The notes beneath the pieces were generated by a model, which made no database searches, had not been told where the DNA came from, and saw nothing but the letters and a program-made list of their open reading frames with translations. A stretch of DNA of 55,544 nt. Origin: a virus (taxonomy: Duplodnaviria > Caudoviricetes). Both the position numbers and the translations under genes were made by a program. Location: IMG/VR virus record IMGVR_UViG_3300012667_000989, positions 1 to 55,544 of that record; one strand, 5' to 3'. Positions 2,943 to 48,043 of this stretch are shown here, piece after piece (within the stretch, counting starts at the first letter, position 1; every line of letters begins with the position of its first letter).

Positions 2943-3132
2943 TAAACAAGAGCATAAATTCTGCAGATGTTGCGATAAAATTATGCCAGCAAATAAAAAA
3001 GTACCTAATCATATTTTACACTTTATTTTAGGTATTTTTACTTATGGTTTCTGGATATTTGTTTGGCTAATTCTTATTCTTTGCAACTCAAATGAACCAT
3101 TCTATTGTGAAAAATGCGGTAGTCATATTTAA
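2935..3132 (+). CDS. Small membrane zinc-ribbon (LITAF-like) protein
   Basis: CRCC...NHILHFILGIFTYGFWIFVW...CEKCG; SD GAGGAGG before ATG 2935. Confidence 0.7.
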   Translation: MSNKQEHKFCRCCDKIMPANKKVPNHILHFILGIFTYGFWIFVWLILILCNSNEPFYCEKCGSHI

Positions 3133-4607
3133 AAGACCGTAAACATTTTATCCCAATCAATGGAGTTGTTTTTAAAATATGTAAGGAACTGTGCGAGACA
3201 ATCAGGGTCTTCATCATGAGAACCATTTGGAAATTGCATTAAAGAATCTTCAAAATCAAATAACCAAGTAGCTTGCTTTGGAATATAAATATTTCCATTA
3301 GCCATTGCACCAGTTGCGTTATAAAATCTAATTTCTTTCTTAACGCCCCCATGAGAAATTGGCACTATACCAAAACTACACTCTTTCGGCAGCTCTTGAA
3401 TTAAAGACGAGCCAGTATTCGCATCTTCAATTAAAATAGAGTTTGCTGTTGGAAATTTAGAGGCAAACATTAAAAGATTTTTCTTTGTGTCTTGATAGAT
3501 TGCCCTTTGATTATAACGGTCAATTAAATAAATTGAAGTGCCTTTTACACCAAATTTAAGAAATCCAGAAGGGTCATTTATTTCTTTCACCTTTTGAGCT
3601 GTATCTGCGCTAACAAAAACAGAATCAAACTGCATGTACGGCAAGTTTTCAAGGTCAAATCTCTGAAACCAATTCATATCAACCATATTACCACCTTCTG
3701 CAACTGGCTTTTGCATGTATTGCGTATAAAATACTTGCTTACCATTTGCAATTCCTGTTTCAGTATCTACGGTGCGGTTTTTTAACTCATCAACTTTCTC
3801 TCTTGTGAATCTTGGCAATTCAGGAGCAAGTAAATCTCCCTCGTTAATTTCTTTCTTAAAATTACCAAAATAGAAGTATTGTTTTTTCTCGAACTCAACT
3901 GGCAAACACAAATGAGTATATTCCTTGCCTCTAGTTCTCAATAAGAAGCCAGTTAAATCACTTACACCAAGTCTTTGCTCTATTATTGCAAAAATATTTC
4001 TTACAACACTTCCACGACTTTCAAATGTATCTGCAAACTTATTTAGAAGCCTGATTTTGGTAGCTTCTGATTGCATCATTGTTGAAGACATGTAATCATC
4101 AAATAAAAGATAATTTGCCCTTTCACCTGTAATATTTCCTTCTGTTGCAAAGCCCTGCATTTCTCCGCCCATCGTGGTTCTAAAATGCGTTTCCGTGTTC
4201 TTTCTATCATCAGCCTTAAATTCTGGGAAAAGCTCGTGAAATCTAGCTGTTTCAGTAATTCTTTTAGTCCAACCAATATTTCTATTTACAAGGTTTTCTT
4301 TGTTTGAGATTGCAAAGATTTTTTCGTAGGGAGTTCGTCCGAGAATATAAGAAGGAAGAGCAGAAGACCAAATTGTGGACTTCATTAGACCAGGGGGAAT
4401 ATTTATGATAAGTCTTTCAATCTCGCCATCAGCAACAGCCTGTGCATATTCGCACATTAAATCAATACTCCAAGTTTCAATCAATGGAGAACTGGGATGA
4501 ATAAACGGATAAGCAAACTTTTTAAAGTAATCAGTAAAGTTTGTTTTGATTGTCTCGTTAGCACTTTCTTGTGCTAACTTTGCTAAGAAGTTTGGGTCTA
4601 AGTTCAT
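3129..4607 (-). CDS. terL: Terminase large subunit (Terminase_6-type)
   Basis: RLIINIPPGLMKST Walker A, LLFDD Walker B, SADTA..K..ND.S and HDEDPDCLAQ nuclease motifs; ATG 4607 preferred to TTG 4661. Confidence 0.93.
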   Translation of the reverse strand: MNLDPNFLAKLAQESANETIKTNFTDYFKKFAYPFIHPSSPLIETWSIDLMCEYAQAVADGEIERLIINIPPGLMKSTIWSSALPSYILGRTPYEKIFAISNKENLVNRNIGWTKRITETARFHELFPEFKADDRKNTETHFRTTMGGEMQGFATEGNITGERANYLLFDDYMSSTMMQSEATKIRLLNKFADTFESRGSVVRNIFAIIEQRLGVSDLTGFLLRTRGKEYTHLCLPVEFEKKQYFYFGNFKKEINEGDLLAPELPRFTREKVDELKNRTVDTETGIANGKQVFYTQYMQKPVAEGGNMVDMNWFQRFDLENLPYMQFDSVFVSADTAQKVKEINDPSGFLKFGVKGTSIYLIDRYNQRAIYQDTKKNLLMFASKFPTANSILIEDANTGSSLIQELPKECSFGIVPISHGGVKKEIRFYNATGAMANGNIYIPKQATWLFDFEDSLMQFPNGSHDEDPDCLAQFLTYFKNNSIDWDKMFTVF

Positions 4608-4621
4608 ATAATAAGTGGTGT

Positions 4622-4659
4622 TTATTAACTTAAAGTTAATAAGAACTAATATTAATTGC
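4622..4659. promoter_or_regulatory. Palindromic operator between divergent terL and tail operon
   Basis: TTATTAACTTAAAGTTAATAA; 34/38 identical to 50292-50329. Confidence 0.7.
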
Positions 4660-4742
4660 AACTTGTTTTTTTATAAGTTTAATAACCTTCAAGGTATCAT
4701 CACTACCTAGTTTTTAGTTCACCACACTAAACAAAATAGAAA

Positions 4743-22271: not shown

Positions 22272-22442
22272 TTATTTTATTCTAAAAGTTTTCCATGTCC
22301 CGCATTTTTCACAAACGCATTGTTTTCTAGTTTCATAATAAAAACCTTTTTCATCAAAAGAGCAGTCATACATTCGAGTTGATTTAATCAATTGCCATTT
22401 GTGATGGCAAAAACCAAGCCATTTTAGAATTGATTTTATCAT
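22272..22442 (-). CDS. Small CxH...CxxCG zinc protein (DUF1660-like), not in ORF track
   Basis: Manual translation MIKSILKWLGFCHHKW...CVCEKCGTWKTFRIK (56 aa); ATGA overlap with upstream gene. Confidence 0.65.
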   Translation of the reverse strand: MIKSILKWLGFCHHKWQLIKSTRMYDCSFDEKGFYYETRKQCVCEKCGTWKTFRIK

Positions 22443-23023
22443 TTCACCACCTCAAAACTCACAACCCAACAAAATGGGTTAGCCTCAAACTTCTCTTCTG
22501 GTTTTTTGTGGGTTGCGTTCCAAAGCTCTTGGAATTTATCAAAAATAACATCTGGCGAATCCCAACCATTTACAAATTGGATCCCTTCTTTAATTACATC
22601 GCCTAGCGTAATATCCGCCAAGCGTTCCACTTTTATCTCTTTAATCAGCGGGGTTAGGCGTGAGTGTTCTTGCTTCATGTGTTGAGCCGGTTTCCACTTA
22701 TAATTATTTTCTTTATCTTGGTTATCCGCATTATAAATTATGTCTCTATAGTGCTGATTCTTATAAATGGTACATGGTCCTAGGGGAAAACTTGAAAGAG
22801 CCTCTTCCGCTTTTCTAAAAGCGTCTTTCCAATTAAAAAACTTCTCCTTCGCAAAAATCTTTTGTCCTACTTGGTAGGGGCAATCACTAAAAGACATAGC
22901 GCTGCAACGGCTATTTAATTTTAAGAAGTCGATTTTATCAGTTTTAATCACCTCCCTAAACATAACTTTTGATCCGTTTAGAATCGCTTGCACTTCTTGT
23001 GCTGTAAAAACTTTACCTTTCAT
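22439..23023 (-). CDS. ASCH/PUA-like phage protein
   Basis: VQAILNG.K..FRE.IK, CPYQVG, WKPAQHM...SR...I....VERL.DI, NPFCWVVSF. Confidence 0.8.
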   Translation of the reverse strand: MKGKVFTAQEVQAILNGSKVMFREVIKTDKIDFLKLNSRCSAMSFSDCPYQVGQKIFAKEKFFNWKDAFRKAEEALSSFPLGPCTIYKNQHYRDIIYNADNQDKENNYKWKPAQHMKQEHSRLTPLIKEIKVERLADITLGDVIKEGIQFVNGWDSPDVIFDKFQELWNATHKKPEEKFEANPFCWVVSFEVVK

Positions 23024-23266
23024 TTATTTGCCCTCCAATTGTTTTTTTGTCTCAGCAATCATTGCATCAATGAGTTGCACGCTAATAATTGCCTCTGTTT
23101 TTCCAGTCGCTAAAATTGCCGATCTTATCCCATTTAATGCGTGAAAATAGCCTTCATCAAATCCGTGCCCGATACTTTCATATTTATTGTAGAAAAAACC
23201 GTGATACCAACAACCAACTGTAGCATGATGTTGTTTTCGGATAAAAAATCTTTTTATTTGCTTCAT
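23024..23266 (-). CDS. hypothetical protein
   Basis: 80 aa, SD AGGGA. Confidence 0.55.
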   Translation of the reverse strand: MKQIKRFFIRKQHHATVGCWYHGFFYNKYESIGHGFDEGYFHALNGIRSAILATGKTEAIISVQLIDAMIAETKKQLEGK

Positions 23267-23732
23267 AATTCCCTAAATTAAATTAATACAGCCCCCTACG
23301 GCAATTAAAGCCAAGCTATCACGACTGGCATGAAGCCAACCGCTGTATCTTACCCCATAAGAGTTCGTTTAGAAGGTACAGAGACTTTCCACTGGTGCGA
23401 TTCTTACTCCCCTTTTGCCCCAGAAGGACGGATCTTAAGCTCCTTTTCAGATGACGAGTTTCCAAAGTCTCGACTTCGCTTTAATACCGACCACGAAAAG
23501 CGCAATCCAAAATATTAAAGCCGTTTATTCCACCTGCTTCTGGTATTCTTTGAAAATTCAAAAAGTCGCAATCAATAGAAGTTGCGCTTGCTTCTATTAG
23601 TCTTTACCCTCCTACCCCTACAAAAGGATCAGATTTAGATACCTATGGCAAGTCTTTGTGGAACCCCAGTATCGGTTAGCAACATGACCTGTTGTTGCCC
23701 GTGTAGATTGCGACCATTTGAAAATTCATAAA

Positions 23733-23834
23733 GCAACGCTGGTAAGGCATTTCACCTTACATGCAACCTTTCGTCTTTAAGGTTCTTGTGAGTGCGTCCG
23801 CCTGACTGCGTCTATATTTCCGCCACAGCGTTGC
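23733..23834 (-). ncRNA. tRNA-like RNA A (no canonical anticodon arm, no encoded CCA)
   Basis: 9-bp GCAACGCTG/CAGCGTTGC stem; TG-GCG GAAATATAGA CGC D arm; GTAAGG TGAAATG CCTTAC T-like arm. Confidence 0.65.
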
Positions 23835-23890
23835 CATAAAAATTCTCAACTATAATAAAGTTACCATAGTTTAGTGTAAATCGTTATACT

Positions 23891-24042
23891 TGGTGGGAGG
23901 GGCAGGATTGTAACCTACGAAACCAAATTAATTAAAATATTCGTGGGTAATTATTCCACTATTTTTTAAATTAACCATACTGGTGGTTTGCCTACTGGTC
24001 GACCGCTGACAAACTGACATTAACATACTCGTCCACCCTCTC
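23891..24042 (-). ncRNA. tRNA-like RNA B with encoded CCA and about 100-nt central insert
   Basis: GAGAGGG/CCCTCCC-A-CCA acceptor; TG-GAC GAGTATGTTAAT GTC D arm; GTAGG TTACAAT CCTGC T arm. Confidence 0.72.
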
Positions 24043-24385
24043 CATTGTCCAGTTTTTTAGTAAATAAACTGGACGAATTTGCCTTTTTACAGAAGGCTAA
24101 CTGGCTTTCTCTCTAGCTGTCACGGATGTCTTACCGTCCTCCATAGTTACCCTGTTTTTTACATGGTTAGGCGTTCCGTAAACTTTCCATGAAGGCGGCA
24201 TAAGTTTATAGAGTCCTGACGCTTATTGTCCTCTTTCCTGCAACCATCTTAAGCCGTTGCCGCTTTTAAAACACCCGCAGCCAAGTAAGCTTTCTTTCTC
24301 TTTTTTAAAAGACTGCGGATGTTATCAATACCAGTACACGCAGGAACCTTTCAAAAAACCTTGTTTACTGATATTGATAGAGAGT

Positions 24386-24413
24386 ATTATCTACATTGAT
24401 TTAGTTAAGTCAA
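24386..24413 (-). promoter_or_regulatory. Sigma70-like promoter for ncRNA array I
   Basis: TTGACT-N16-GATAAT; predicted start about 24379 coincides with the first stem. Confidence 0.7.
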
Positions 24414-24456
24414 GAGAAAAGATTAAAATAAATGAAAATAAAGTGCTTGACATGAT

Positions 24457-24786
24457 TTATCTTAGAGTTTCAAGCTTTACCTTAAAATATTCGTAACCTT
24501 TTTTAACAATAATTTTCTTTATATTGGCTTCGTAAATATCTTTATCATCAAAGCCATATTTCTTTTGCATGATGTCTTGAAGTGGCTTAACTGGATTATC
24601 CCAGTCAGAAGCTTTATTGCTAAATCCGAACTCAAAATAAATGCGATAAGGTGGTTCTGGTAGCTTTTTTCTAGGTAAAGCTAACAGTAAATCTTCTTGA
24701 TAGTCTAGGTATTCTTTGGATTTGTATCTTTTTCCTTGCCAGCATTTATTAACTGACAATGGTGGTATTTCTAGTTTAATTTCCAT
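24457..24786 (-). CDS. rusA: RusA-family Holliday junction resolvase
   Basis: PPLSVNKCW, DWDNPVKPLQD......DDKDI. Confidence 0.88.
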   Translation of the reverse strand: MEIKLEIPPLSVNKCWQGKRYKSKEYLDYQEDLLLALPRKKLPEPPYRIYFEFGFSNKASDWDNPVKPLQDIMQKKYGFDDKDIYEANIKKIIVKKGYEYFKVKLETLR

Positions 24787-25139
24787 TATTTATTAATCCT
24801 AAAATTAAACCCCTGACCATCCACAAACTCAATCACGAAAGTTTCAGGATACCTTAAATAGTTTGCAAAAGAGAAAAGCGTTCTCTTCTTAAAAGCTTTC
24901 TCATTAAGCCCTATCTCTAACTGCATATCATAATAATCAAACAATTGCTTTTGAGTTGCTCTGTATCTTAAAGCAGTAACAATTTTATCTAAGTTGAAAT
25001 AATAATCTCCAACCTCAAGTATTCCGCCAACATCATCAGCGATCCAACGCCAATCAGCATCTTTGTCGAAGTATTTTCTAACAAACTTCTTAGCAATTCC
25101 ATTGCAGGATTGTTCGTAAGCTATAATTTCTTTAATCAT
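24786..25139 (-). CDS. hypothetical phage protein
   Basis: 117 aa, coupled overlaps; WIADDVGG. Confidence 0.65.
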   Translation of the reverse strand: MIKEIIAYEQSCNGIAKKFVRKYFDKDADWRWIADDVGGILEVGDYYFNLDKIVTALRYRATQKQLFDYYDMQLEIGLNEKAFKKRTLFSFANYLRYPETFVIEFVDGQGFNFRINK

Positions 25140-35449: not shown

Positions 35450-36440
35450 AACATTCTCAACGCCCCTAGTCCGAGTTTCCAACTTACATTGGCTGGTCTT
35501 TACTCCCACGGTTTGCCTTGCGACTTAACACTAGCGATTGCGCTGGTTTTATTTATTCTCAACCCCTATTTCTAAGAATCAAGAGAAAAATAAGTTTTAA
35601 TGTATCCGAATTCGGTAACATTAAAAATAAAGCTTTTTGCCAATGTATAGCTTTCGATCTGATGCTAACAGTACTATTAACATTTTTCTGCACTAATCAT
35701 AACCCCGTGTCGAGGTTGGTCGGAGCGCCTAAATTAGAAACTACCCCGTTTTCAGCGTCTAATCGCCTAGATTGCTTTCAATCGGTCAGATTCTTTGGCT
35801 CTCAAGTGCCATTTCACGGATTCAAACCGCCTCTCGTCTTTACCAAAACTCAATCACCGATCAGGAATTGAACCTGCATTTTTCGCGCTTTCTTCTTTAG
35901 TCAGGCTGACTTTGGTGGCGTGGAGGGGATTTTCACCGATGATTTACAAACTAGAATAATGTAAAACCATTTTTACCAATACTTCTGACTACTTCTTCAA
36001 TTAAATTCTAGATAGATAATTAAATTTTCTTCAGATGCTTTCTAATAAGCTACTCACGCCGTATGTCCCCCACTGGTGCGATCCTTTCGGGTTCGTTTGG
36101 GGGCACTATTCAAAGGGCTAAAACCTGCCCTCTGGCTTGATTTGCATTTCCAAAATATTTCTATTTTCCGACCATGTTTCAGGTATCGGCGGTGTTTTAT
36201 TAATATTAAACTAGAAGAGCCTAAACCCCACGCGAAGCTTTCTCCTGTACTTTGCAAAAAACGCATTTCTGCGCTTTTCTATACATGTTTTTTTGATATG
36301 TATAGAAAACCAAAGAAATCTATATATGAACCCCGTAAGCCATTGTCTAGAATAACTTACAGGGCTACTAGATACAGTTGCAACCGCTCTAGTACCAGCT
36401 CTATCACTTACATTGAAAAGGAGGGAGGTGACTGGTCTTT
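35450..36440 (-). ncRNA. Structured ncRNA region II
   Basis: About 1 kb without a credible ORF; many hairpins, T-loop motifs, long-range 9-bp complementarity; upstream promoter. Confidence 0.6.
35853..35944 (-). ncRNA. tRNA-like RNA D (acceptor plus T arm only)
   Basis: ATCATCGG/TCGGTGAT stem; CAGG TTCAATT CCTG T arm; no recognisable D arm. Confidence 0.5.
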
Positions 36441-47880: not shown

Positions 47881-48019
47881 ATTCGAGTGGTGGAATGGTA
47901 AACACAATCAGAGCGGCTAGAAATAGCAATGCGAGCGTATCCTGAATTGACAGGAAGTTCTTGTATGTGAGATAGGGGTGTTTAATATCTCCTTTGTGGG
48001 TTCGAGTCCTACCTCAGAA
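47881..48019 (+). ncRNA. tRNA-like RNA C with about 90-nt multi-hairpin insert
   Basis: TG-GTG GAATGGTAAA CAC D arm; GTGGG TTCGAGT CCTAC T arm; bulged TTCGAG/CTCAGAA acceptor; TTGCTA..AAGAAT promoter-like site at 47851-47878. Confidence 0.72.
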
Positions 48020-48043
48020 AACACATACCTTAATTTATCACTT

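What the first reader, a model, noticed from the sequence alone, without database searches (positions are those of the whole stretch)
23286..24379. Promoter-driven array of about 10 self-contained structured RNAs, including tRNA mimics
Seen: 1.1 kb with no credible ORF, visibly more GC-rich than its flanks, built of back-to-back units each closed by its own inverted repeat: ATACAGC/GCTGTAT (23286-23348), GAGACTTT/AAAGTCTC (23381-23471), GTCGCAATC/GATTGCGAC (23565-23713), tRNA-like 23733-23834 and 23891-24042, GTCCAGTTT/AAACTGGAC (24047-24074), 24122-24179, 24193-24265, 24270-24323 and 24323-24379. TTTGAAAATTCA recurs as a linker near 23550 and 23717. C-A mismatches in several stems become G-U pairs on the minus strand. 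TTGACT-N16-GATAAT (24413-24386) would start transcription at the first stem. Inference: a polycistronic ncRNA cassette that is cut into separate RNAs, possibly using the tRNA-like units as RNase P/Z punctuation, with the products acting as decoys or guides against host proteins. A single large phage ncRNA of the GOLLD/ROOL kind is the alternative. This is the best candidate for an undescribed system.
Basis: partly seen in the sequence, partly recalled or inferred. Interest (0 to 1): 0.9.

Follow-up and report, generated by a model that had tools for sequence, protein, structure and literature searches.

The report
Phage array of tRNA-derived structured RNAs
A 1.1-kb gene-free stretch of an uncultured phage carries a conserved promoter followed by a string of separately folding RNA modules, several descended from tRNAs, which related phages gain, lose and swap like cassettes; what the RNAs do is not known.

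Summary
Window 23267-24456 is an ORF-free, GC-richer gap (0.41-0.42 against 0.30-0.35) on the minus-strand operon of a complete 55.5-kb phage. It lies downstream of a RusA-like gene, behind a promoter whose TTG and GATAAT are invariant in 5 of 5 lineages. No Rfam family, tRNA or tmRNA is detected in it. Nine related contigs give seven different array layouts, all built from the same kit. The kit is a leader of two hairpins followed by self-closed modules of 50-160 nt, separated by an AU-rich linker. Modules are present, absent or re-ordered between relatives, which argues against one large RNA. The best conserved module ("unit C", 151 nt, five helices) keeps 98% of base pairs. Six of its pairs show changes on both sides, and eight are G-U pairs that read only on the minus strand. 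Several modules descend from tRNAs. One window module ends in a T-arm, a 7-nt acceptor strand and ACCA. Homologous modules in two relatives score 22.8 and 24.1 bits against the tRNA model, and true tRNAs occupy the same locus in more distant phages. I read it as a phage tRNA island turned into a polycistronic array of tRNA-framed stable RNAs. Processing and function are untested.

The parts
24386..24456 (-). Promoter region: conserved AT-rich stretch after the RusA-like stop, -35 TTGACT (24413-24408) and -10 GATAAT (24391-24386)
   Evidence: Consensus scan 10 of 12. TTG and GATAAT are invariant in 5 of 5 lineages although the region is only about 71-73% identical overall.
24323..24379 (-). M1: first leader hairpin, starting about where transcription would start
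   Evidence: Sequence and MFE. Relatives carry a different hairpin (M1', CCCTAG...CTAGGG) at this place, or both hairpins.
24268..24322 (-). M2: second leader hairpin (10-bp stem 24272-24320, conserved purine-rich loop) followed by GUUUU; possible attenuator/terminator
   Evidence: Present in 7 of 7 aligned lineages. 70 of 70 cells are paired, one pair is G-C in 4 and A-U in 3 sequences, and 17 of 500 shuffles score as high. It also heads a protein-coding insert in L043, L050 and L039.
24194..24263 (-). M3: 70-nt unit closed by GCGGCA/UGCCGC; its first ~29 nt are homologous to the 5' part of a decayed tRNA-like element in L050
   Evidence: 29-30 nt match to L050 and L039. Folding z -0.80. L050 has T-arm-like hairpins downstream of the homologous stretch.
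24123..24190 (-). M4: unit closed by CAUGGA/UCCGUG; seen in the window only
   Evidence: Sequence and fold (z -1.79 together with M5). No homologue found.
24076..24122 (-). M5: small conserved hairpin unit
   Evidence: 47 nt 98% identical in L050. A 31-nt match lies in L034 next to a true tRNA-Gly. Contigs of runs X1 and X16 carry it.
24047..24074 (-). M6: hairpin GUCCAGUUU...AAACUGGAC, first part of a 232-nt cassette
   Evidence: Sequence. A contig of X16 joins 24081 to 23848 and X1/L050 joins 24076 to 23843, so 23849-24080 is an insertion within a linker.
23891..24042 (-). M7: 152-nt tRNA-like unit. Acceptor-like stem (GAGAGGG / CCCUCCC, 6 of 7 pairs), 3-bp D-like stem, long inserts, T-arm GUAGG-UUACAAU-CCUGC (23918-23902), then A and CCA (23894-23891)
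   Evidence: Sequence. The MFE keeps the closing stem and the abutting 5-bp/7-nt-loop hairpin. It is the only one of 52 loose T-arm+acceptor hits in the window that is followed by NCCA (post hoc). Not called by ARAGORN or Rfam. No other copy in IMG/VR (0 matches).
23846..23890 (-). Spacer with a second promoter-like site (TTTACA-17-TATTAT, 23880-23852), ending in the linker GAAUUUUUAUGG
   Evidence: 10 of 12; no comparative support.
23733..23835 (-). T module: closed by GGCAACGCUG/CAGCGUUGC, with a 6-bp hairpin abutting the 3' strand and a D-arm-like GCG...CGC after UG
   Evidence: The same closing stem frames unrelated interiors of 91 nt (L050), 137 nt (L049, canonical GGUUCGAAUCC T-arm) and 158 nt (L036, L038, L040, L044). 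The L039 counterpart scores 24.1 bits and the L040 interior 22.8 bits against RF00005, whose gathering score is 29. Folding z -3.68, 0 of 200 shuffles.
23716..23732 (-). Linker 1 (UUUAUGAAUUUUCAAAU)
   Evidence: recurs between modules in L039, L049 and L050.
23565..23715 (-). Unit C: 151-nt five-helix RNA (9-10-bp closing stem, three hairpins plus one small one, last hairpin abutting the 3' strand); the most conserved module
   Evidence: 89-98% identical in 9 other contigs whose adjacent RusA DNA is 72-78% identical. 45 pairs, 98.1% of cells paired, 6 pairs changed on both sides, 0 of 500 shuffles, slid controls at most 2. z -2.57. No Rfam match.
23545..23564 (-). Linker 2 (UUUUUGAAUUUUCAAAG)
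23419..23544 (-). Module E: closed by CCAGAAG/CUUCUGG; conserved apical hairpin on a stem that differs between lineages; window-specific 33-nt insertion
   Evidence: Alignment of 4 lineages; 34 predicted pairs, 1 changed on both sides.
23286..23418 (-). Module F: two hairpin domains, ending at the ribosome-binding site of the next gene
   Evidence: Differs from L050 at 1 of 133 aligned positions, so it gives no covariation. Absent from L049 and L039.

Best explanation
The region is the phage's tRNA island, remodelled into a polycistronic array of small stable RNAs.

A strong sigma-70-type promoter just after the RusA-like gene starts a minus-strand transcript. The transcript opens with two leader hairpins. 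The second, M2, carries a short U run and probably attenuates or gates read-through. It then runs through 8-10 independently folding modules of about 50-160 nt.

Each module is closed by its own 6-10-bp terminal stem. In at least five modules a hairpin abuts the 3' strand, which is the acceptor/T-arm arrangement of tRNA. Modules are separated by an AU-rich single-stranded linker.

Inferred: the linkers and tRNA-like frames are where host tRNA-maturation enzymes (RNase P at the 5' side; RNase Z, RNase E-type cuts or exonucleases at the 3' side) release the modules. The frames also protect the released RNAs.

Shown by comparison: the identical closing stems and linkers are the points at which modules are exchanged between phages, so the array evolves by cassette gain, loss and swap.

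Unit C is the constant payload. The tRNA-derived modules range from near-tRNAs (in relatives) to forms that can no longer decode (in the window).

My guess at function, at low confidence: the RNAs engage host tRNA-binding or RNA-processing proteins during infection.
For: Shown:
- The gap is non-coding.
- The promoter is conserved in 5 of 5 lineages.
- Folding exceeds shuffles and coding controls.
- Seven different layouts are built from shared modules. Examples: unit C lies before the T module in L036/L038/L040/L044 and after it in the window, L049, L050 and L039. The 232-nt M6+M7 cassette is missing at a linker in two run contigs and in L050. F is absent from L049 and L039.
- Unit C has structural constraint and minus-sense G-U pairs. 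M2 has one covarying pair.
- tRNA descent: L039 scores 24.1 bits (E 0.025) and is called tRNA-Tyr by ARAGORN; L040 scores 22.8 bits (E 0.022). Canonical T-arms occur in L049, L039, L040 and L050. M7 has the T-arm, acceptor strand and ACCA.
- True tRNAs sit at the same locus in more distant phages: 3 of 38 loci scanned (tRNA-Gln in L011 and L020, tRNA-Gly in L034). In L034 the tRNA is preceded by the same type of linker.
- One contig from an RNA library spans unit C to F in a relative.

From the literature (passages read): RNase P processes phage T4 multimeric tRNA precursors and other phage small RNAs (PMC11143913).
Against: - No transcript ends, strand or abundance are known. The RNA-library contig may be DNA carry-over and does not stop at module borders. 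The other RNA run laid, X17, gave nothing.
- The family is small: the window plus 9 contigs, about 6 distinct lineages. All six double changes in unit C come from one sequence (L039), whose central part may be a swapped-in segment rather than gradual compensation.
- The whole-region z-score is the same on both strands, so strand choice rests on the G-U pairs, the sense of the tRNA-model hits, the ACCA and gene orientation.
- M3, M4 and M7 fold no better than shuffles (z -0.80, -1.79, -1.16). M3 and the T module of L039 look decayed.
- Only M7 has a CCA end.
- Most relatives were found by searching with unit C itself, so its 'constancy' (6 of 7 layouts) is biased.
- The host is unknown, so the processing enzymes are assumed.
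Confidence: 0.55

Rival explanations
1. Decaying tRNA island. The stretch is mostly debris of former tRNA genes and recombination scars, kept only because it lies in a recombination-prone, dispensable slot. Only the promoter/leader, which serves the downstream genes, and perhaps unit C are functional.
For: The window has no functional tRNA. M3 keeps a closing stem but no T-arm, while its L050 homologue keeps T-arm-like hairpins but no acceptor pairing. The tRNA-Tyr-like element of L039 pairs at only 4 of 7 acceptor positions. The L040 tRNA-like interior has three non-standard acceptor pairs. Interiors of the T module are unrelated between lineages. The same slot holds ORFs instead of RNAs in L043, L050 and L039. 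M3, M4 and M7 fold like shuffles.
Against: The region stays GC-rich and more structured than coding controls. Closing stems are intact in every module, even where interiors differ. Unit C and M2 show pairing constraint. Unit C is better conserved than the neighbouring gene in each comparison. Debris would not be expected to keep 6-10-bp terminal stems in 8 or more consecutive units.
Confidence: 0.2
2. One large structured RNA of the GOLLD/ROOL kind: a single ~1.1-kb transcript whose modules are peripheral domains of one fold, possibly multimeric, with tRNA-like elements in a linker region.
For: The genomic setting is the same. [quoted passage not shown] GOLLD has a conserved 3' part and a variable 5' part, loosely like the conserved unit C/E and the variable 5' modules here. 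The global MFE draws some long-range pairs.
Against: No GOLLD, ROOL or other Rfam match at E<=10 in the window or in three relatives' arrays. Relatives keep working-looking arrays of 470 nt (L002) to ~1100 nt, with modules deleted, added and re-ordered. Every module closes on itself.
Confidence: 0.1
3. A DNA-level element (replication origin, packaging or attachment site, or recombination hotspot), whose inverted repeats act as DNA rather than RNA.
For: It lies among recombination and replication genes: RusA-like, NinB-like, RecT and DnaB. The linker contains a 14-bp palindrome. The z-score is as good on the plus strand. A tRNA 3' end such as that of M7 is typical of phage attachment sites.
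Against: No tyrosine or serine integrase in the complete genome (0 matches at E<=1). Eight of 45 unit C pairs are G-U in the minus sense and would be A-C mismatches in DNA or in plus-sense RNA. The tRNA-model hits, the T-arms and the ACCA all read on the transcribed strand behind a conserved promoter. No iterons or tandem repeats were seen in the sequence.
Confidence: 0.05

Closest known systems
Phage tRNA gene clusters processed from multimeric precursors (phage T4 tRNA operon; recalled: it also encodes two stable, tRNA-sized-plus RNAs of unknown function, 'species 1 and 2')
   Same: One promoter and a string of closely spaced small structured RNAs with acceptor-like terminal stems. Maturation is by RNase P and 3' trimming (PMC11143913, passages). 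True tRNAs sit in the same locus in related phages.
   Different: The window has no decodable tRNA at all. Modules are 50-160 nt with large inserts. A conserved linker and identical closing stems frame unrelated interiors. The T4 species 1/2 comparison is from memory and was not checked in any call.
GOLLD and ROOL large phage RNAs
   Same: Phage-borne, non-coding, highly structured, near tRNA islands, function unknown.
   Different: No match to their Rfam models. This is a modular, re-orderable set of self-closed units rather than one conserved fold. No evidence of multimers.
Bacterial and phage Y RNAs (YrlA)
   Same: A tRNA-like domain (D- and T-arm mimicry) carried inside a longer RNA whose 5' and 3' ends form a stem. 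M. smegmatis YrlA is cut by RNase P and receives CCA (PMC4201824, passages). The L040 T module, with its tRNA-like interior inside a 10-11-bp closing stem, has this general look.
   Different: No Ro60/TROVE gene in the phage and no YrlA Rfam match. In YrlA the acceptor-like stem is a hairpin between the T and D arms, whereas the L040 interior aligns to the tRNA model in the ordinary tRNA order. The Ro-binding motif was not looked for.
tmRNA tRNA-like domain and engineered 'tRNA scaffolds' (scaffolds recalled)
   Same: Acceptor stem plus T-arm kept as a frame around a large foreign insert (the L049 T module, the L020 element and M7).
   Different: ARAGORN finds no tmRNA. Rfam tmRNA hits are T-arm-only, with E above 1. 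No tag reading frame.
tRNA punctuation of polycistronic transcripts (mitochondria; herpesvirus MHV68 tRNA-miRNA units) - recalled
   Same: tRNA-like folds used as cutting signals to release neighbouring RNAs.
   Different: Not known for phage ncRNA arrays. Here each module carries its own frame, rather than being flanked by tRNAs. Untested.

Membership tests
tRNA (RF00005) | Cloverleaf recognised by covariance model or ARAGORN at or above threshold | tested here: not met
   Window: ARAGORN finds none in the region at default, 80% thresholds or with introns. RF00005 gives 0 matches at E<=10. Relatives: 24.1 bits (L039) and 22.8 bits (L040), both below the gathering score of 29.
tRNA (RF00005) | T-arm (5 bp, 7-nt loop with U1 and A5) abutting a 7-nt acceptor strand, then discriminator and CCA | tested here: met
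   M7 only: 23918-23891. The T module has a 6-bp hairpin with loop UGAAAUG abutting its closing strand, but no CCA.
tRNA (RF00005) | Anticodon arm with a 7-nt loop and U33 | tested here: not met
   No such arm can be drawn in the window's T module or M7 (read). L039 has a plausible GUA anticodon arm.
GOLLD / ROOL | Match to the family covariance model (conserved core) | tested here: not met
   cmscan of all 4227 Rfam families: nothing at gathering score in the window. Nothing from these families at E<=10 in 22800-24900 or 23700-24280, nor in the arrays of L039, L049 and L050.
GOLLD / ROOL | Phage or prophage location near a tRNA island | tested here: met
   Complete phage. tRNA-derived modules here and true tRNAs at the locus in L011, L020 and L034.
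GOLLD / ROOL | Homo-oligomeric cage | not testable with these tools
   Needs cryo-EM or SEC-MALS.
Y RNA (YrlA) | Encoded next to a Ro60 (TROVE) gene | tested here: not met
   PF05731: 0 matches at E<=1 in the complete genome.
Y RNA (YrlA) | Match to the Rfam model / Ro-binding helix motif | tested here: not met
   No YrlA hit in any cmscan. The Ro-binding motif itself was not searched.
tmRNA | tRNA-like domain plus tag reading frame | tested here: not met
   ARAGORN finds no tmRNA. Rfam tmRNA hits of 7-9 bits cover the T-arm only.
Phage attachment site in a tRNA gene | Integrase in the genome, usually adjacent | tested here: not met
   PF00589 and PF00239: 0 matches at E<=1.
Promoter-proximal terminator/antitermination leader (lambda pR'-6S-tR' type; recalled) | Constitutive promoter, short structured leader, intrinsic terminator, downstream of the nin/rusA region | tested here: inconclusive
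   The promoter and two hairpins are conserved in all lineages, and M2 is followed by GUUUU. The terminator scan finds none on the minus strand, because the loop is too large for its rule. No antiterminator gene was identified.

The most novel reading that the evidence does not exclude
A natural 'RNA cassette array'. The phage uses a standard frame (AU-rich palindromic linker, 9-10-bp acceptor-like closing stem, abutting hairpin) to express, excise, stabilise and horizontally swap diverse structured RNA payloads, much as an integron does for genes. Its payloads would include an undescribed 151-nt five-helix 'giant cloverleaf' RNA class (unit C) and tRNA mimics with 60-100-nt inserts. These would act on host tRNA-binding or defence proteins.
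Probability: 0.2. Interest if true: 0.85.

Novelty: new variant of a known kind. Interest (0 to 1): 0.55.

Why it matters
Phage tRNA islands are known to harbour enigmatic RNAs such as GOLLD and ROOL. This locus shows a different outcome of the same setting. An island has lost all decodable tRNAs, yet it keeps the tRNA frame around new, self-contained structured RNAs and trades them between phages at conserved linkers.

If the modules are released and stable, three things follow. They would be several new small-RNA classes in a virus. They would be a natural precedent for the tRNA-scaffold trick used to stabilise recombinant RNAs. They would also be candidates for RNA-based interference with host tRNA-directed enzymes or defences.

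Unit C is a concrete, compact target of 151 nt for structure probing.

The case is limited by the small family, the unknown host and the lack of any transcript data.

Tried and rejected
- Rfam. The whole window at gathering score gave 0 matches. Permissive scans of the region, of 23700-24280 and of the arrays of L039, L049, L050 and L040 gave only chance-level hits, apart from two sub-threshold tRNA matches.
- Cultured phages. blastn 'distant' of 23200-24500 found no match. The portal and DnaB proteins are at most 27.5% and 33.5% identical to any record, so there is no host lead.
- Pattern scans that gave only chance matches inside coding DNA: L041 and L051-L055. All were dropped from every count.
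- The M7 3' end had 0 matches in IMG/VR. The M2-loop pattern gave 6 stretches, none new.
- Unit C covariance model R1. It was found in 1 of 121 genomes searched around the MAG that holds L050, namely that MAG itself. It hit only the window among 35 sources. The MAG is 3.0 Mb against about 1.1 Mb for its listed relatives, and it holds three contigs with pieces of the locus. I treat it as a mixed bin and draw no host from it.
- RNA run X17 laid no contig.
- Alternative genetic codes and the antisense 62-aa frame: no coding signal.
- Ro60/TROVE and integrases are absent.
- Loose T-arm+acceptor scan: 52 hits in the window against 36.6 +/- 5.6 in shuffles. It is not discriminating on its own.
- Palindromes in loops and linkers as dimerisation signals: 6-nt palindromes are expected by chance about 17 times in 1.1 kb (my arithmetic), so this was dropped.
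- Linker as a per-module promoter: no suitably spaced -35 (read), so rejected.
- The MFE difference between strands reflects composition. The z-scores are equal, so it is not used as strand evidence.
- Paper searches listed no description of such an array. One search failed on a term with a slash. Only listings were seen, plus passages of three papers.
Full report
**What the window is.** The window is a complete 55,544-bp viral record with direct terminal repeats. The finding lies in a long run of minus-strand early genes: DnaB helicase, RecT, a NinB-like protein and a RusA-like protein. No cultured phage is close. The portal is at most 27.5% and DnaB at most 33.5% identical to any record, and blastn of the region finds nothing.

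**The observation.** Between the stop of the RusA-like gene (24457) and the next start codon (23266) there are 1190 bases without a credible reading frame. This also holds under table 4 or TAG=Q.
- The only notable frame, 62 aa antisense, resembles its counterpart in the closest relative only where the DNA is nearly identical.
- GC is 0.41-0.42 against 0.30-0.35 around it.
- The inverted repeats, the twice-repeated TTTGAAAATTCA and TTGACT-16-GATAAT are all there.
- The 1094-nt core folds better than dinucleotide shuffles: z -4.39 minus strand, -4.51 plus strand, 0 of 25 shuffles each. It also folds better than four equally long coding stretches of the same operon, which gave z -0.35, -2.11, -2.61 and -2.14.
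- The lower MFE of the minus strand is a composition effect and is not evidence of strand.
- Rfam finds nothing at gathering score in the whole window, and nothing meaningful at E<=10 in the region. ARAGORN finds no tRNA or tmRNA there.

**Relatives.**
- Of 32 viral loci that encode a relative of the RusA-like protein, one (L002) shares DNA with the gap.
- Exact-word scans with conserved pieces added L036, L038, L039, L040 and L043 from IMG/VR, and L044, L047 and L049 from metagenomes. They also added L050, an 1818-nt contig of a MAG.
- Matches L041 and L051-L055 lie in coding DNA and are chance; I dropped them.
- The family is therefore the window plus 9 contigs, giving seven layouts.
- Most relatives were found with unit C as bait, which biases how often it appears.

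**The shared kit.** Every layout starts with the same promoter (TTG and GATAAT invariant in 5 of 5 aligned lineages) and a leader.
- The first leader element is hairpin M1 or M1'.
- The second is hairpin M2. Its 10-bp stem is paired in 70 of 70 cells, with one G-C to A-U switch in 3 of 7 sequences (17 of 500 shuffles as high). Its loop is conserved and it is followed by GUUUU.
- What follows differs between layouts:

| Layout | Order after the leader |
|---|---|
| L043 | an ORF and one hairpin |
| L002, L047 | a ~90-nt unit, then unit C |
| L036, L038, L040, L044 | the same, plus a 158-nt T module after unit C |
| L049 | T module, unit C, a hairpin unit, a 78-nt unit, E |
| L039 | an ORF, ~350 nt of GC-rich non-coding sequence, a tRNA-Tyr-like unit, unit C, E |
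| L050 | an ORF, two decayed tRNA-like units, M5, T, C, E, F |
| window | M1, M2, M3, M4, M5, M6, M7, T, C, E, F |

- Units are separated by variants of one AU-rich linker (UUUAUGAAUUUUCAAAUGG or UUAUGAAUAUUUUUAUGG).
- A contig of run X16 joins 24081 to 23848, and L050 and its twin contig in X1 join 24076 to 23843. So M6+M7 is a 232-nt insertion inside a linker.
- The T module shows the frame most clearly. The same closing stem, GGCAACGCUG/CAGCGUUGC, encloses interiors of 103, 91, 137 and 158 nt that share no sequence.

**Unit C.** This 151-nt module is 89-98% identical across contigs whose adjacent RusA DNA is only 72-78% identical.
- The consensus fold has a 9-10-bp closing stem and four internal helices. 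The last helix abuts the 3' strand.
- On 6 distinct sequences, 98.1% of cells pair and 6 pairs carry changes on both sides. None of 500 shuffles reaches this, and slid controls give at most 2.
- All six double changes come from L039. Its central 60 nt differ while its flanks are identical, so this may be a segment swap that preserves two helices rather than stepwise compensation.
- Eight of the 45 pairs are G-U in the minus sense, which fixes the strand.
- Unit C alone folds with z -2.57.
- A covariance model of it found no further copies in 35 sources, nor in the 120 other genomes searched around the MAG.

**tRNA descent.** In the window nothing passes as a tRNA. The evidence for descent is as follows.
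- M7 ends with a 5-bp stem and the 7-nt loop UUACAAU. A 7-nt strand follows directly and pairs at 6 of 7 positions with the start of the module, then A and CCA. Among 52 loose hits of a T-arm/acceptor scan of both strands, it is the only one followed by NCCA (a post hoc test).
- The T module begins, after its closing strand, with UG and a 3-bp stem GCG...CGC, where the D-arm lies in tRNA. From memory, 3-bp D-stems go with long-variable-arm tRNAs.
- The L039 counterpart is called tRNA-Tyr by ARAGORN and scores 24.1 bits against RF00005. The L040 interior scores 22.8 bits. The gathering score is 29.
- Canonical T-arms stand in the arrays of L049, L039, L040 and L050.
- In more distant phages the same locus holds true tRNAs, in 3 of 38 loci scanned. 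In L034 the tRNA-Gly is preceded by the same kind of linker and followed by an M5-like hairpin. In L020 a tRNA-Gln sits beside a ~140-nt element with an 8-bp acceptor stem and a canonical T-arm around a ~120-nt insert.
- Some units are clearly decayed: the acceptor of L039 pairs at 4 of 7 positions, and M3 has lost its T-arm.

**How it probably works.**
- Shown: a conserved promoter; a non-coding, structured, minus-sense string of self-closed modules; cassette-like turnover at linkers; tRNA ancestry; and structural constraint on unit C and M2.
- Inferred: the modules are co-transcribed, released at the linkers and closing stems by tRNA-maturation enzymes, and persist as small stable RNAs. M2 gates read-through.
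- RNase P is known to process multimeric phage tRNA precursors and several non-tRNA phage RNAs (PMC11143913, passages). It is also known to cut a tRNA-like Y RNA (PMC4201824, passages).
- Function is a guess: engagement of host tRNA-binding or RNA-processing proteins.
- The only expression hint is a 359-nt contig, under 90% alike, from one RNA library, spanning unit C to F of a relative. A second RNA run gave nothing.

**Rivals.**
- *Largely dead tRNA island (0.2).* This fits the decayed units and the ORFs that occupy the slot in some relatives. It does not fit the intact closing stems, the GC and folding signal, or the constraint on unit C.
- *Single GOLLD/ROOL-like RNA (0.1).* This shares the setting. 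It fails the model match and is hard to square with module loss, gain and re-ordering.
- *DNA element or attachment site (0.05).* This is contradicted by the G-U pairs and by the absence of any integrase.
- Y RNA membership fails on the absent Ro60 gene.

**Verdict.** The locus is best filed as a new variant of the phage tRNA-island theme, holding at least one RNA (unit C) that belongs to no described family. Five paper searches (listings only, plus passages of three papers) showed no description of such an array. Supplementary lists of the Y-RNA and GOLLD/ROOL papers could not be seen.

Noticed in passing
window 47940-48020 (+): ARAGORN calls an 81-nt tRNA-His. The drawn cloverleaf has mismatches and a long extra arm, and the Rfam tRNA model finds nothing in the whole window at E<=10. 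It is probably not a real tRNA, so the phage may encode none.
   Followed up: partly
window 35586-35634 (+); L049 6540-6590; L044 1881-1917: A ~50-nt AT-rich hairpin that forms one unit of the L049 array also lies in an intergenic stretch of the window's early region, in the opposite orientation (82% identical to L049; 37 nt identical to L044). It may be a small mobile hairpin or a terminator.
   Followed up: partly
L034 1860-2240: A more distant phage has, upstream of its phrog_874-like gene, a linker-like GAGAATATTTTT, a true tRNA-Gly with encoded CCA, about 250 nt of GC-rich non-coding sequence and an M5-like hairpin followed by a U run. This may be another ncRNA in the same kind of island.
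   Followed up: no
L020 2480-2625 (+): A ~140-nt element with an 8-bp acceptor-like stem and a canonical GGUUCGAAUCC T-arm around a ~120-nt insert, next to a true tRNA-Gln. ARAGORN does not call it, and its folding z is -0.13.
   Followed up: partly
L039 9709-10059 (-): About 350 nt of GC-rich, ORF-free sequence between a 66-aa ORF and the tRNA-Tyr-like unit. No Rfam match at E<=10. It may be a further large structured RNA.
   Followed up: partly
window 22439-23023 (-); L043, L049, L050: The 194-aa phrog_874 protein (no Pfam match) directly follows the array in L043, L049 and, cut by the contig end, L050. In the window it follows after one 80-aa ORF. It is the most constant protein neighbour of the array, and its function is unknown.
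   Followed up: partly
window 23852-23880 (-): A second promoter-like site (TTTACA-17-TATTAT, 10 of 12) lies inside the array, just upstream of the T module and within the window-specific cassette. It could drive the 3' half of the array separately.
   Followed up: no
G001 (the MAG that holds L050): contigs C228, C131, C244: The MAG is 3.0 Mb while its listed relatives are about 0.8-1.5 Mb. It carries three contigs with pieces of this locus at 90-95% identity. This looks like a mixed bin containing phage variants, so it is not usable as host evidence.
   Followed up: partly
window 3129-4661 (-): A 510-aa protein with a terminase RNaseH-like domain is encoded on the minus strand among plus-strand structural genes.
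   Followed up: no
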